The notes under the pieces were generated by a model, which saw only the letters and a list, made by a program, of their open reading frames with translations, was not told where the DNA came from and made no database searches. Made by a program: the position numbers and the translations under genes. 64,000 bases of DNA from a virus (Duplodnaviria; Caudoviricetes). The stretch is from the IMG/VR virus record IMGVR_UViG_2892966740_000006, positions 1-64,000 of that record; one strand, given 5' to 3'. Within the stretch, counting starts at the first letter, position 1, and each line of letters starts with the position of its first letter. Positions 29,915-47,115 of this stretch are shown in pieces.

Positions 29915-30370
29915 CTAAAAAAGCTGACCTTGGGGGACGTTATCAGGCAGCAGCTCGTCGGCCTTGCTCAAAATCTCTTCGATCCGGCGGTCACACAGTT
30001 TGAACTTTGGCACCAGTATATTATTGACGGTGGCATTATGTCCCAGCTCCCGGCAGTGTCTGTCATAGTCTGCCCGGATCTCTGCATCACGTAGCGCCCG
30101 CAACGCGGCGGCGCATTTCGGTACGTATAACCGCGTGTTCCCGTAGTGTTTGGTCAGTGTTCGGGCTGCATCCACTCCCACCACCTCAGCCAGCGCCGAA
30201 AAATACTGGCCTTCCTGCCGGGCGGTTTTAGGAATGGGGAAATGGGTGCCGCCCAACAGGTCGACCAGCTTCATGGTCATGGGCAGGCTGATCAGCCGCA
30301 CCAGTTCACGGGCGTTTTCCGGCAGCAGGTGCTGGGCACGCAGAATCGCGTCCTCTCTTACTTTTCCCAT
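29915..30370 (-). CDS. Mor/C-family transcription activator
   Basis: YG..RLYVPKC, RD.EI.ADY and L.DRRIEEIL motifs. Confidence 0.85.
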   Translation of the reverse strand: MGKVREDAILRAQHLLPENARELVRLISLPMTMKLVDLLGGTHFPIPKTARQEGQYFSALAEVVGVDAARTLTKHYGNTRLYVPKCAAALRALRDAEIRADYDRHCRELGHNATVNNILVPKFKLCDRRIEEILSKADELLPDNVPQGQLF

Positions 30371-30789
30371 GCTTCAGTTCCTTTACCATGGCGGCGGGCA
30401 TCGATTTCCAGCCCGATCATCAACCGGCGCAGCTGGTCATCATCCAGCCATGCCACCTTCTCAACCTTGAACATGCGGAGCGCCATTCCATCGGCGTAGT
30501 CCCATGGCCGTTTCTGGTCAGCCAGCAGAGCCTCAACCTTGGCCATGTAGCGCTCGCGGTCATCTTGGGGCGTGGGACGTTTACCGATATTTCGCGCGGT
30601 CTTTTGCACAAATCCAAGGCGCTTCATTTCGGCCAGTACGTCATCCAGTTGCTGCAGGGTCAGCTTGGTACTGCTGGTCTTGCCTTCGGCCAGACGGGCG
30701 AGCATGGCCCGATAGCTGTCATCCGCCATCTGCAGCTGCTGCTTGGCGATATGAATCTTGGAGATCATCGCCTTGCGTCTATCGGTCAT
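30358..30789 (-). CDS. gemA: GemA (DUF1018)
   Basis: IHIAKQQL.M.DDSYRAML...GKTSS..L. Confidence 0.88.
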   Translation of the reverse strand: MTDRRKAMISKIHIAKQQLQMADDSYRAMLARLAEGKTSSTKLTLQQLDDVLAEMKRLGFVQKTARNIGKRPTPQDDRERYMAKVEALLADQKRPWDYADGMALRMFKVEKVAWLDDDQLRRLMIGLEIDARRHGKGTEAWEK

Positions 30790-30808: not shown

Positions 30809-30900
30809 CTCAATGCACGCGTGACCGGCCATGCCGAGCTTTATCAGAGGACGGCACCCCAGTAAGTGGATCGGGGCTGGCCGGTCACGGCTGCATTGAG
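30809..30900 (-). ncRNA. unrecognised structured RNA, copy 1
   Basis: Long stem around a 39-nt core shared with 46489..46581. Confidence 0.65.
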
Positions 30901-30947
30901 GGTTAAAACACGTTGCGGAGCCTGTAACGCAGGCTCGACACCGGGTT

Positions 30948-31358
30948 CTAAGTGGTACTACTTCGTCGCCAGATGAAATCCAATTCGCTAGGGAGTACCC
31001 ATAAGTGCCGCATGTTTGCCACATTCACGACATCGCCGATTCGCGGGTATACCTCAATAGCATCGTTGCTGCCGTAGCCGACTCCATCCTTGATGTCCTG
31101 CAGCTCCTCCCAACTAATGCCATCGATCCAATGGCCATCGTTTCCCAGACAAGTACGGCACACAGACAGGCGCACAATGTCGTTCGGCTCGGCATAAAGC
31201 TGCACCATGAAGTCCTTGCTCCAGTAGACCGCGAAGGGGAAATTCCTCCCCTTGATTTCAGGCCACCGATCACGCGGGGCGGGTGTCAGTACGGCCGGTA
31301 GCGTAGCTACTAGCTCACGGTTTGCTTTTTGCCGTGCTCGTCGTTGTTCTCGGTTCAT
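30948..31358 (-). CDS. conserved phage hypothetical protein
   Basis: ISWEELQ.IK and EVYP...VVNVANMRHLW motifs. Confidence 0.7.
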   Translation of the reverse strand: MNREQRRARQKANRELVATLPAVLTPAPRDRWPEIKGRNFPFAVYWSKDFMVQLYAEPNDIVRLSVCRTCLGNDGHWIDGISWEELQDIKDGVGYGSNDAIEVYPRIGDVVNVANMRHLWVLPSELDFIWRRSSTT

Positions 31359-32324: not shown

Positions 32325-32339
32325 TGCTGTCCTTTGGCT

Positions 32340-32394
32340 GCTCATCAGTACCGGACCACCACGCCCGGCAGACCACCCTTGCGGGCGGTTTCGC
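32340..32394 (-). ncRNA. hammerhead ribozyme (type II topology)
   Basis: GC-GAAA-CCGCCC(GCAA)GGGTGG-TC^-TGCCGG(loop)CCGGTA-CTGATGA-GC. Confidence 0.85.
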
Positions 32395-32398
32395 TGGG

Positions 32399-45732: not shown

Positions 45733-46488
45733 ATCGAACTCCAAAAAAAATGAGGCCGCTCGGGCCTCGTTATTCCTTATCCTGGTATCGCTGACCGCAC
45801 TGGTCTGAGCAGAACTCGTCAAAGTGATGCCGCACCCTATGACGCCCGGTGATCGGGTCACGGTCCTGCTGTACGACTTCGTGGATGACGCGATCCTCTA
45901 TCGGCTTTCCGCAGTGCGGGCAGCGTGGGAGTGTGTTCACGCCACCTCCCGTACCATCTGGATGACGTTTTCGCGGCTCTCAGCAGGCAAGCGGCTTGCA
46001 GCCAGCGCAACTTCCAGTTCGCGGATGCGTGCGTCTGCCGCAGCAAGCTGGCGCTCTGCGATTTCGGTACGCTCGGCCTCGGCGGCCAGTGCGATGTTCT
46101 GGCGGCCAAGGTCCATGATGTTTTCGTTGAGCTGTTTGATCTGCGATTGTTGCCTGAGGATGATCTCAGCAGCTTGCAGTCTGATAATGGTTATTTGGTC
46201 CATGGCGTTTCCTCAAATAAGGCTGGGCTGCTCCAGCACGCCCAGCGGCGCGAGGTCTGATGCCTCGGCCACGATTGTTGTGTGTATGACGGCATCGACC
46301 AGAACCATCGAGACACCATCCCGCTCGTGATAGCCACCATTACGGCCGGCGGACTACGGTTTGCCCGGCATATAACTTCCAGTCGCCCTCCCCGTTCACG
46401 GTGAAAGCGGTGTCCATCGGAATGCGCCGGGCATCACGCTTGGCAGCGGCCAAATGCTCTATGGTTCCGTGTTCCATGCCCTCTCCTT

Positions 46489-46581
46489 CCGCCGCCAGTG
46501 TTGAGCGCCCTCTACCGGCTTTATCAGAGGACGGCACCCAAGCGAGTTGATCGGGGTGAAGGCGCTCAGGACTGGCGGCGG
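46489..46581 (-). ncRNA. unrecognised structured RNA, copy 2
   Basis: Long stem around the core shared with 30809..30900. Confidence 0.65.
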
Positions 46582-46634
46582 GGCAAAGAAAAAGCCCGCG
46601 GGTGGCGGGCTTGTCATACTTCAATAACGGGTGA

Positions 46635-47115
46635 TCACATCACCAGCACGCTGAAGCGCGATTGCAGGCCGATTGGGGAGAACGGGATGTCGTCATCAAG
46701 ATCGTCCATCTTCTTCGGCGCTGGATCTGGCTGACGTCGAGGCGGCGCAGCCGGGGCGCTGTGCTGCTCACCTGCCCCATCACGCCCACCCAACATTTGC
46801 ATACGGTCGCCGCGAATCTCCGTGCTGTAACGGTCCTGGCCGGTTTCTTTGTCCTGCCATTTGCGCGTACGGATCGAACCTTCCACGTACACTTGCGAGC
46901 CTTTTTTCAGGTATTGGGCTGCAACTTCGGCTGTTTTGCCAAAGAACACGACACGGTGCCATTCGGTCAGCTCTTCACGCTGGCCGGTTTGCTTGTTGTT
47001 GTACGTGTCGGTGGTGGCCACGGACAGTGTGGCAATGGCGTCGCCTAAGCATGTAACGCGTTTCAGGATCGCGGCCAAGGTTGCCGACGAGGATCACTTT
47101 GTTGACTGATGCCAT
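46635..47115 (-). CDS. ssb: single-stranded DNA-binding protein
   Basis: [25 protein letters not shown] and DDDIPF; break near 47045. Confidence 0.92.

What the first reader, a model, noticed from the sequence alone, without database searches (positions are those of the whole stretch)
30809..30900. The same unrecognised RNA motif occurs in two unrelated prophages (copy in the Mu-like phage)
Seen: a 39-nt core (30838..30876) matches 46518..46556 at 35 positions, including 22 identical nt (GCTTTATCAGAGGACGGCACCC). The flanks differ in sequence but both form long stems (here CTCAATGCA/TGCATTGAG and CGTGACCGGCCA/TGGCCGGTCACG). On -, three of the four differences fall in a small ACTY-N4-GGGT hairpin, which stays paired. 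Both copies are intergenic in early operons, just before an RBS (here gemA). Inference: a conserved functional RNA, such as a new self-cleaving ribozyme, an RNase III-released sRNA or protein decoy, or an antitermination element. I cannot match it to hammerhead, HDV, twister, pistol or a riboswitch.
Basis: partly seen in the sequence, partly recalled or inferred. Interest (0 to 1): 0.85.

Follow-up and report, generated by a model that had tools for sequence, protein, structure and literature searches.

The report
Shared structured element in unrelated prophages
A folded nucleic-acid element of about 90 bases, with an invariant 12-base loop, is shared by three unrelated kinds of prophage in one bacterial family; it sits just ahead of regulator genes, matches no catalogued RNA family, and folds best on the strand opposite to those genes.

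Summary
Window 30809-30900 and 46489-46581 are two of five copies in this genome. I found 28 distinct versions, all in prophages of one family (named hits: Aquitalea, Chromobacterium).

**Structure:** a stem of about 20 bp (P1) closes a three-way junction. Hairpin P2 carries an invariant UCAGAGGACGGC (window + strand). Hairpin P3 covaries. Across the 28 sequences, 95.7% of pair cells are paired against 74.3% in shuffles, and 25 of 28 pairs show changes on both sides.

**Known families:** Rfam has no match. A genuine type II hammerhead lies 1.5 kb away, and in two relatives it lies 10-13 nt from the element.

**Position:** the element sits 11-23 nt before a start codon (one locus: 77 nt). Downstream genes include gemA, alpA-like, HTH_17 and excisionase-like genes, in Mu-like, gpA-type and lambdoid prophages.

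**Strand:** G-U wobbles favour the strand antisense to the genes (35 against 8). The neighbouring hairpin H0 favours the sense strand (30 against 4).

**Best guess (about 0.3):** the body of a cis-antisense RNA acting on the leader of the downstream regulator. Rivals are a sense-strand processing or stability element, a single-stranded DNA signal, and a ribozyme (about 0.05, untested). Function is unproven.

The parts
30809..30900 (+). Element copy 1 (Mu-like prophage). P1a 30809-30817/30892-30900; P1b 30821-30831/30878-30888; P2 30833-30836/30852-30855, with the invariant 12-mer at 30844-30855; P3 30857-30860/30873-30876. The fold appears selected on the + strand.
46489..46581 (+). Element copy 2 (lambdoid prophage). 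P1 46489-46499/46571-46581 and 46502-46509/46561-46568; P2 46515-46517/46532-46534, with the invariant 12-mer at 46524-46535; P3 46535-46539/46554-46558.
30901..30950 (-). Hairpin H0. A conserved irregular hairpin that begins at the stop codon of the upstream gene. It ends in a U-rich run, which the predicted fold pairs into the stem. It folds on the sense strand and precedes the element in Mu-like loci.
   Evidence: 18 pairs, two invariant G-U; sense more stable in 9 of 9, G-U 30 against 4.
30358..30789 (-). gemA, the gene directly downstream of copy 1 in the sense direction. Its ATG lies 19 nt after the base of P1.
   Evidence: PF06252, E 8e-25.
30948..31358 (-). Upstream gene (DUF7694). This slot is variable among Mu-like relatives.
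32332..32396 (-). Type II hammerhead ribozyme in the same early operon, 1.5 kb upstream in the sense direction.
   Evidence: 72.3 bits, gathering score 37.
46592..46612 (-). Intrinsic-terminator-like hairpin plus T run, directly upstream (sense direction) of copy 2.
46340..46477 (-). 45-aa ORF whose RBS abuts copy 2. No Pfam or PHROG family.
46635..47078 (-). SSB-like gene upstream of copy 2. It was named from sequence hallmarks that I recall, not from a profile search.
   Evidence: translation only.

Best explanation
**What it is.** It is a genuine, uncatalogued structured element of about 90 nt. A closing stem of 18-23 bp (P1) carries a three-way junction. Hairpin P2 has a U-rich 5' half and an invariant UCAGAGGACGGC. 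Hairpin P3 covaries, and its loop usually contains GUUGRU. Mu-like, gpA-type and lambdoid prophages of one bacterial family carry one copy each. It lies in the untranslated gap just before a gene start. Of the downstream genes profiled, most are putative regulators (gemA followed by mor, alpA-like, HTH_17, excisionase-like).

**How it most likely works.** The fold appears selected on the strand antisense to those genes. My best mechanistic guess is that the element is the structured body of a cis-encoded antisense RNA, working like FinP on traJ or Sar on ant. A host factor would bind the invariant loop. The RNA would pair with the mirror-image hairpin in the leader of the downstream mRNA, right next to its ribosome-binding site. 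The long duplex would then be cut, or translation blocked. This would keep activators of lytic growth or excision silent until induction.

**Shown:** the structure, covariation, strand bias, position, distribution, and absence from Rfam.

**Inferred:** that the + strand is transcribed, that the active form is RNA rather than single-stranded DNA, the host cofactor, and any regulatory effect.
For: **Structure.** 28 distinct sequences; 95.7% of 774 pair cells are paired against 74.3% in shuffles (0 of 500 reach it). 25 of 28 pairs change on both sides. Partners slid by 1-3 columns give 29-43%.

**Strand.**
- In the model alignment there are 35 G-U cells on the + orientation against 8 A-C cells, which would be G-U on the other strand.
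- Folding only the two P1 arms, each strand on its own, gives 641 pairs with 49 G-U on + against 598 pairs with 10 G-U on -.
- The + strand is more stable in 18 of 28. Of the other 10, eight are wobble-free copies that differ by 0.5 kcal; L043 and L051 favour -.
- Internal control: the neighbouring hairpin H0 prefers the sense strand in 9 of 9 (G-U 30 against 4). A regional mutation bias therefore does not explain the result.
- Close relatives differ by single transitions that keep pairing only on + (L054 against L034; L057/58 against L044; L042 against L055).

**Position.** In 29 of 30 loci the gene-proximal end of P1 lies within about 25 nt of the first ATG that follows a ribosome-binding site. 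The script's own gaps ran -10 to 23 nt because it often took earlier in-frame starts; read by eye the gaps are 11-23 nt. The one exception is 77 nt. Of 5 downstream genes profiled, 4 hit Pfam: GemA, HTH_17, Phage_AlpA and, weakly, DUF1233 excisionase. The others were named by eye from translations.

**Host range.** Matches in 20 of 68 genomes of the family. Among 147 genomes of other families in the order there is one marginal hit, E 0.0097.

**Recalled, not tested.** The P3 loop motif UUGA/UUGG fits the YUNR type of recognition loop in antisense systems.
Against: - No sigma-70-like promoter was found on either strand near either window copy or L187.
- The DNA 5' of the element on the + strand is the start of non-homologous genes, so any promoter would have had to arise several times.
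- No U-rich tail follows P1 on the + strand.
- The element stops 1-12 nt short of the Shine-Dalgarno sequence, so overlap with it depends on an unknown 5' end.
- The structure conservation index (0.945 on +, 0.969 on -) and shuffle z-scores do not separate the strands.
- If the two outermost P1 pairs are left out, the wobble count is only 15 against 8.
- The sense strand is certainly transcribed as part of the operons, and sense-strand RNA modules (hammerhead, H0) lie directly beside the element.
- A perfectly complementary cis-antisense RNA does not by itself explain the invariant 12-mer.
- No strand-resolved expression data could be obtained; one search returned contigs only.
Confidence: 0.3

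Rival explanations
1. Sense-strand cis-acting mRNA element. The mirror-image hairpin in the polycistronic early mRNA would act as an intercistronic processing or stability signal. Its duplex of about 20 bp is of RNase III size, and it could serve as a 5' stabiliser after an upstream cut or terminator read-through. The conserved cap would bind a protein and set translation of the next gene.
For: - It is always co-oriented with flanking genes, and it ends 11-23 nt before the start codon in 29 of 30 loci.
- Sense-strand RNA modules lie directly upstream: a hammerhead 10-13 nt away in L045 and L056, H0, and intrinsic terminators.
- P1 is 18-23 bp in all members.
- The sense fold is still very stable.
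- A 190-nt contig from a metatranscriptome run spans H0, the element and the gemA start; its strand is unknown and the material may be DNA.
Against: - Wobble pairs sit on the wrong strand (35 against 8; arms only, 49 against 10), while H0 beside it shows the expected sense-strand pattern.
- In L187 the element lies between a terminator and an AT-rich region with two palindromes, 77 nt before the next gene. Sense transcription there would need read-through.
Confidence: 0.25
2. Single-stranded DNA signal on the template strand. The three-way junction would mimic a replication fork, or act like a single-strand origin. It would recruit host priming or restart proteins, or a nicking replication protein, and would be exchanged as a cassette among phages that share one host family.
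For: - The fold is strand-specific without any visible promoter or terminator.
- There is one copy per prophage.
- It sits at mosaic junctions. Homology between L187 and L206 breaks exactly at the start of the element.
- In the gpA-type group it lies about 0.6-2 kb downstream of a large gpA-type rolling-circle initiator. 12 gpA copies are adjacent to an element, in 9 genomes.
- Copy 2 follows an SSB-like gene.
- The element is restricted to one host family.
- Published motif surveys note that single-stranded DNA and RNA motifs cannot be told apart by computation (PMC5737381, passages read).
Against: - Mu-like and lambdoid phages have no obligatory single-stranded stage.
- 6 of 20 genomes with the element lack any gpA.
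- Two large gpA genes, in G045 and G053, have no element.
- For forks that move in the direction of early transcription, the + strand is the leading-strand template.
- The five chromosomal copies do not share one orientation relative to chromosome replication.
- The direction of P2 replication is recalled and was not verified (one search gave nothing usable).
Confidence: 0.2
3. A new class of self-cleaving ribozyme.
For: - It lies in Mu-like early operons, where hammerheads are common: window 32332-32396, L045, L056, D3112 and RS138.
- A paper states that bacterial ribozymes cluster near Mu-like phage genes and near each other (PMC10085705, passages read).
Against: - No match to any ribozyme model at E<=10.
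- The junction strands and the P1 internal loop vary or are absent; the gpA-type group has a perfect 22-bp P1. The conserved bases lie only in one hairpin loop.
- The preferred strand is antisense to the hammerheads.
Confidence: 0.05
4. No function of its own. It would be a quasi-palindrome kept complementary by template switching, or a recombination linker at module borders.
For: It lies at homology breakpoints. Palindromes can be homogenised without selection (established knowledge, recalled).
Against: - An invariant 12-mer and the three-way architecture are kept across four gene contexts and several genera.
- The wobble pattern is strand-asymmetric.
- P3 covaries independently.
Confidence: 0.07

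Closest known systems
Cis-antisense regulators of leader regions (FinP/traJ of F-like plasmids, Sar/ant of P22, CopA/repA of R1); properties recalled
   Same: A stable stem-loop RNA encoded opposite the untranslated leader of a regulator gene, close to its ribosome-binding site. The mirror-image hairpin lies in the target. The fold is selected on the antisense strand.
   Different: No promoter or terminator was found. The element is larger: a three-way junction on a 20-bp stem. It has an invariant loop shared across unrelated phages. Expression is unproven.
RNase III processing signals between genes of T7 and lambda early operons (recalled)
   Same: A duplex of about 20 bp, sometimes with an internal loop. 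It lies between genes of phage early operons, just before a ribosome-binding site.
   Different: Those sites have no conserved branched cap and act on the sense strand. Here the wobble pattern favours the other strand.
c4 / CI immunity RNAs of P1, P7 and P4 (Rfam RF01695)
   Same: As I recall it, a closing stem with two hairpins whose loops recognise targets. They are phage regulators processed from an operon leader.
   Different: The Rfam model gives no match even at E<=10. Those RNAs are on the sense strand. No target sequence was found here.
Single-strand origins and primosome assembly sites of rolling-circle plasmids and small phages; integron attC sites (recalled; attC discussed in PMC5737381)
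   Same: Strand-specific folded DNA. Sequence varies while structure is kept. They are exchanged as cassettes at module borders. Function is host-specific.
   Different: The hosts here are double-stranded temperate phages. The conserved bases lie at the top of the structure, not at its base. No integron integrase was looked for.
Orphan phage-associated motifs of the Weinberg 2017 survey (drum, DUF3800-I to XI)
   Same: Structured motifs in phage-like contexts with unknown roles.
   Different: The best Rfam score is 17.1 bits to DUF3800-IV, against a gathering score of 60.7. The element is not a member.

Membership tests
Any Rfam 15 family (4227 models) | Covariance-model score at or above the curated gathering score | tested here: not met
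   Across the whole window, only Hammerhead_II at 32332-32396 and a tRNA pass. At E<=10 on 300-nt windows around both copies there are only weak hits to unrelated families, such as DUF3800-IV at 17.1 bits against 60.7 and miRNA models.
Hammerhead ribozyme | Three stems around the conserved core (CUGAUGA ... GAAA) with a cleavage triplet | tested here: not met
   No hammerhead-clan match at E<=10 on either strand. The same search finds true hammerheads nearby.
Twister, twister-sister, pistol, hatchet and HDV-like ribozymes | Match to the family covariance model | tested here: not met
   No match at E<=10.
c4 / CI antisense RNA (RF01695) | Match to the family model; target repeats downstream | tested here: not met
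   No match at E<=10. The loop's complement occurs nowhere else in the window, and at chance level in the genome.
Cis-antisense RNA regulator | Fold selected on the strand opposite the target gene | tested here: met
   G-U against A-C is 35 against 8. Arms only, 49 against 10 G-U, and + is more stable in 18 of 28. The H0 control gives the opposite result.
Cis-antisense RNA regulator | Own promoter and terminator on the antisense strand | tested here: not met
   Consensus scans find none. The flanks are non-homologous and not U-rich. These scans are crude, so this lowers the claim but does not exclude it.
Cis-antisense RNA regulator | Detected antisense transcript | not testable with these tools
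   Only assembled contigs without strand information were available.
RNase III processing site | Roughly two helical turns of duplex RNA | tested here: met
   P1 spans 18-23 positions in all 28 sequences. Cleavage itself is not testable here.
Single-stranded DNA initiation signal or attC-like site | Strand-specific fold with variable sequence | tested here: met
Single-stranded DNA initiation signal or attC-like site | A partner enzyme or a single-stranded stage in every carrier | tested here: inconclusive
   A gpA-type initiator lies beside the element in the gpA-type group. It is absent from 6 of 20 genomes with the element. The Mu-like and lambdoid carriers have no known single-stranded stage.
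Riboswitch | Conserved ligand pocket, usually at a junction, coupled to an expression platform | tested here: inconclusive
   The junction strands are short and variable, and conservation lies in one hairpin loop. Ligand binding is not testable here.

The most novel reading that the evidence does not exclude
The element works as folded single-stranded DNA. It would be a three-way junction that mimics a replication fork, carried on the template strand. It would form a portable, host-family-specific 'single-strand initiation' or nicking cassette. Mu-like, gpA-type and lambdoid temperate phages would exchange it to recruit the host replication-restart or priming machinery.
Probability: 0.15. Interest if true: 0.8.

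Novelty: new variant of a known kind. Interest (0 to 1): 0.55.

Why it matters
If it is functional, this would be a non-coding module that three unrelated types of temperate phage in one host family have all acquired. They place it immediately before regulators of lytic growth or excision. That points to a shared control step that depends on the host.

Two adjacent hairpins in one intergenic region have opposite strand preferences. This is unusual, and strand-specific RNA mapping can test it directly.

The element also lies beside hammerhead ribozymes whose role in Mu-like phages is still unknown, so it may help to explain that association.

It is a narrow, rare family: 28 distinct sequences and one bacterial family. 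Its general importance is therefore uncertain.

Tried and rejected
**Searches for more copies**
- Rfam at gathering score and at E<=10 gave no family.
- blastn of 151 nt against 50,697 phage records gave no match.
- An 18-mer scan of viral contigs returned 28 loci. Only 7 are true copies. The other 21 are an unrelated coding stretch in AT-rich phages or another unrelated sequence.
Of the 80 loci listed and screened, 4 are true copies.
- The metagenome scan returned 18 loci, of which 2 are true.

**Structural ideas**
- A kissing or pseudoknot pair between the P2 loop (UCAG) and the P3 loop (UUGR): complementary in most members, but the two UCUG variants (L053, L061) show no compensating change. 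An all-against-all column scan found nothing convincing.
- An anti-Shine-Dalgarno role for the sense-strand CCUC loop: by eye, any ribosome-binding site would be complementary, so this has no specific support.

**Targets and host signals**
- A trans target in the host: the 12-mer occurs only in the 5 copies, and one-mismatch hits are below the reversed-pattern control.
- A DNA-uptake-sequence relative: the recalled Neisseria 10-mer occurs only 12 times in the genome.

**Strand and expression**
- The structure conservation index and z-scores did not separate the strands.
- Promoter and terminator scans found nothing on the + strand.
- Replication orientation: origin near 1.40 Mb and terminus near 2.90 Mb; the 5 copies do not share one orientation.
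- Laying public runs returned contigs only, so there is no information on strand, ends or level. Small shares in wastewater and aquatic runs were not interpreted.

**Neighbouring proteins and relatives**
- The unknown protein family upstream of the element has no Pfam or PHROG family. The Atlas gave only unnamed clusters scoring 0.85 or less.
- Large gpA loci of G045 and G053 have no element, even with the search filters off.
- Other Mu-like phages (D3112, RS138, phiE255) have no structured gap before gemA.

**Papers**
- Searches for prior description used these terms: Mu-like/hammerhead/prophage/RNA motif; bacteriophage P2/rolling circle/...; Chromobacterium/prophage/antisense RNA/....
- Nothing described this motif in the listings and abstracts I read. 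Supplements were not seen, and those of the 2015 and 2017 motif surveys could list it.

Full report
**Observation.** Both copies are as described. Window 30838-30876 and 46518-46556 agree at 35 of 39 positions, with the first 22 identical. Different long stems flank the shared core in the two copies. Each copy folds much better than shuffled versions on either strand (z -5.2 to -6.0, 0 of 200 shuffles as good). The ORF lists show that all neighbouring genes lie on the - strand. Copy 1 ends 19 nt before the ATG of gemA (PF06252, E 8e-25). Copy 2 follows a terminator-like hairpin (46612-46592) and ends 12 nt before a 45-aa ORF.

**More copies.** The genome holds five copies: three in Mu-like contexts and two in lambdoid contexts. 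I built a covariance model from seven Mu-like copies (R1). It found members in 15 of 60 other genomes of the same family and in 0 of 40 genomes of other families. I then built a second model from 13 diverse members (R2).
- R2 matched 20 of 68 genomes of the family.
- Among 147 genomes of other families in the same order, it gave only one marginal hit (E 0.0097, 24.9 bits).
- 50,697 phage records gave no blastn match.

After removing identical rows, 28 distinct sequences remain (alignment A8; 30 hits, 2 duplicates dropped).

**Anatomy.** P1 is a stem of 18-23 positions. In Mu-like copies it is often split by a small internal loop; in the gpA-type group it is a perfect 22 bp. P2 is GCCG/CGGC, closing a loop whose 5' part is short, U-rich and variable. 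Its 3' part, UCAGAGGA, together with the stem strand CGGC, forms a 12-mer that is invariant except for single changes in 5 of the 28 sequences (L042, L050, L053, L060, L061). P3 has 4-6 bp and covaries. Its loop usually holds GUUGRU. On A8, 95.7% of 774 cells are paired, against 74.3% in shuffles (0 of 500 reach it) and 29-43% when partners are slid. 25 of 28 pairs show changes on both sides. All 20 P1 pairs and all 4 P3 pairs covary; P2 hardly varies. This alignment was fitted to the model, which leans the counts towards the structure. The hand-read sequences agree.

**Not a known family.** Rfam gives nothing at gathering score except a type II hammerhead at 32332-32396 and a tRNA. At E<=10 there is no ribozyme, riboswitch or c4 match on either copy.

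**Context.**
- **Group A, Mu-like:** a variable gene, then hairpin H0 (or, in L045 and L056, a hammerhead 13 and 10 nt away), then the element, the ribosome-binding site and gemA.
- **Group B:** a large gpA-type replication initiator (PF05840, E 2.6e-76), then an unknown protein of about 148 aa, then the element 13-16 nt later. After a further 13-22 nt comes an HTH_17, AlpA-like or excisionase-like gene, or in L051 a 48-aa ORF of no known family.
- **Group C:** an SSB-like gene, a terminator, the element and a small ORF.
- **Group D (L187):** a distant homolog of the unknown protein, a small ORF, a terminator, the element, 77 nt of AT-rich DNA with two palindromes, and then a gene.

A paralogous locus without the element (L206) is about 97% identical up to the base where the element starts. 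It then diverges completely. The element therefore sits at mosaic junctions.

**Which strand?** The flanking genes are always opposite to the model orientation, which is the window + strand. Pairing nevertheless favours the + strand.
- The alignment has 35 G-U cells against 8 A-C cells.
- Without the two outermost P1 pairs the count is 15 against 8. Those outer pairs are themselves paired in 27 and 26 of 28 sequences on +, but only in 19 and 15 on -.
- To avoid alignment bias I folded only the two arms, each strand alone. This gave 641 pairs with 49 G-U on + against 598 pairs with 10 G-U on -.
- The + strand was more stable in 18 of 28. Eight wobble-free copies differ by 0.5 kcal, and L043 and L051 favour -.
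- As an internal control, hairpin H0 next door prefers the sense strand in 9 of 9 sequences, with G-U 30 against 4 and two invariant G-U pairs.

Some results go against a clear call. The structure conservation index (0.945 against 0.969) and the shuffle z-scores do not separate the strands. The whole-sequence energy advantage of + in 22 of 22 sequences is partly a composition effect.

**Mechanism.** I found no promoter-like or terminator-like site for a + strand RNA. The + strand 5' flanks are unrelated coding starts. Strand-resolved expression data were not available. The public runs are contigs. One 190-nt contig from a metatranscriptome run spans H0, the element and the gemA start, which shows neither strand nor transcription.

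I still rank a cis-antisense RNA first, at about 0.3. The fold is selected opposite the leader of regulator genes, next to their ribosome-binding sites, as in the FinP, Sar and CopA systems (recalled). A sense-strand processing or stability element comes second (0.25), and a single-stranded DNA signal third (0.2). The latter two are nearly as likely.

The single-stranded DNA idea draws on four points: the link to gpA, the three-way shape, the cassette-like exchange and the lack of a promoter. It is weakened because 6 of 20 genomes with the element have no gpA. It is also weakened by the replication modes of Mu-like and lambdoid phages. The five chromosomal copies do not share a replication orientation.

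A ribozyme (0.05) has only guilt by association. A paper states that bacterial ribozymes cluster near Mu-like phage genes and near each other (PMC10085705, passages read). I also found hammerheads in D3112 and RS138 upstream of their gemA clusters.

**Novelty.** No catalogued family matches. Three literature searches (listings and abstracts read) and passages of two papers did not describe the motif. The 2015 ribozyme survey was not held, and supplements were closed, so a listing there cannot be excluded.

**Verdict.** This is a real, narrowly distributed, previously uncatalogued structured element with an unresolved but testable strand paradox. Its function is unknown. Interest is moderate.

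Noticed in passing
window 30901-30950 (- strand); L035, L040, L043, L047, L053, L054, L060, L061, L064: H0 is a highly conserved irregular hairpin. It starts at the stop codon of the upstream gene. It has conserved 1x1 mismatches, two invariant G-U pairs and a U-rich 3' end. It occupies the slot that a hammerhead fills in L045 and L056. It may be a leaky terminator or a protein or RNase site.
   Followed up: partly
window 30837: There is an extra A (GCCGAGC where every other copy has GCCGGC). The three public contigs that cover it lack this base.
   Followed up: partly
L044:1041-1487, L051:1604-2023, L052:1041-1484, L038:1720-2076; G000:C3:3066366-3066719: A family of unknown proteins of 118-148 aa, sharing an NLYT-like N-terminal motif, lies directly upstream of the element in gpA-type and lambdoid prophages. 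It has no Pfam or PHROG family. A 97% identical paralog in the same genome is followed by different cargo (an alpA-like gene by its translation) and no element.
   Followed up: partly
L186 (G056:C1:3737000-3756999) and one search places: A subfamily of large gpA-type initiators (780-880 aa) has the element about 0.6-2 kb downstream. Twelve gpA copies are adjacent to an element, in 9 genomes. Ordinary gpA genes of 580-770 aa have none adjacent. Two large gpA genes, in G045 and G053, also have none.
   Followed up: partly
L207 528-599 (phage D3112); L208 228-294 (phage RS138); L056 2052-2114: Type II hammerheads sit one to three genes upstream of gemA in Pseudomonas and Ralstonia Mu-like phages, and twice in one Aquitalea-group prophage. 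This looks like a conserved slot.
   Followed up: partly
L060 1501-1600 (- strand of the locus): In this divergent member the otherwise loop-exposed CAGAGGA pairs with an upstream UCCUCUG. That segment overlaps the P1 arm, so there is a possible alternative pairing. P3 is also extended.
   Followed up: no
window 46635-47115 (- strand): The SSB-like gene reads in two frames: an N-terminal piece at 46975-47115 and the rest at 46635-47078. It also runs 14 codons past the usual acidic C-terminal tail. This suggests frameshifts or assembly errors.
   Followed up: no
L187 9993-10069 (- strand): The AT-rich gap after the element holds two palindromes (ATTGCT-N7-AGCAAT and TTGATCATAATGGTCAA) before a gene of 186 aa with a weak Lcl_C domain match. 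It looks like an operator region of a moron.
   Followed up: no
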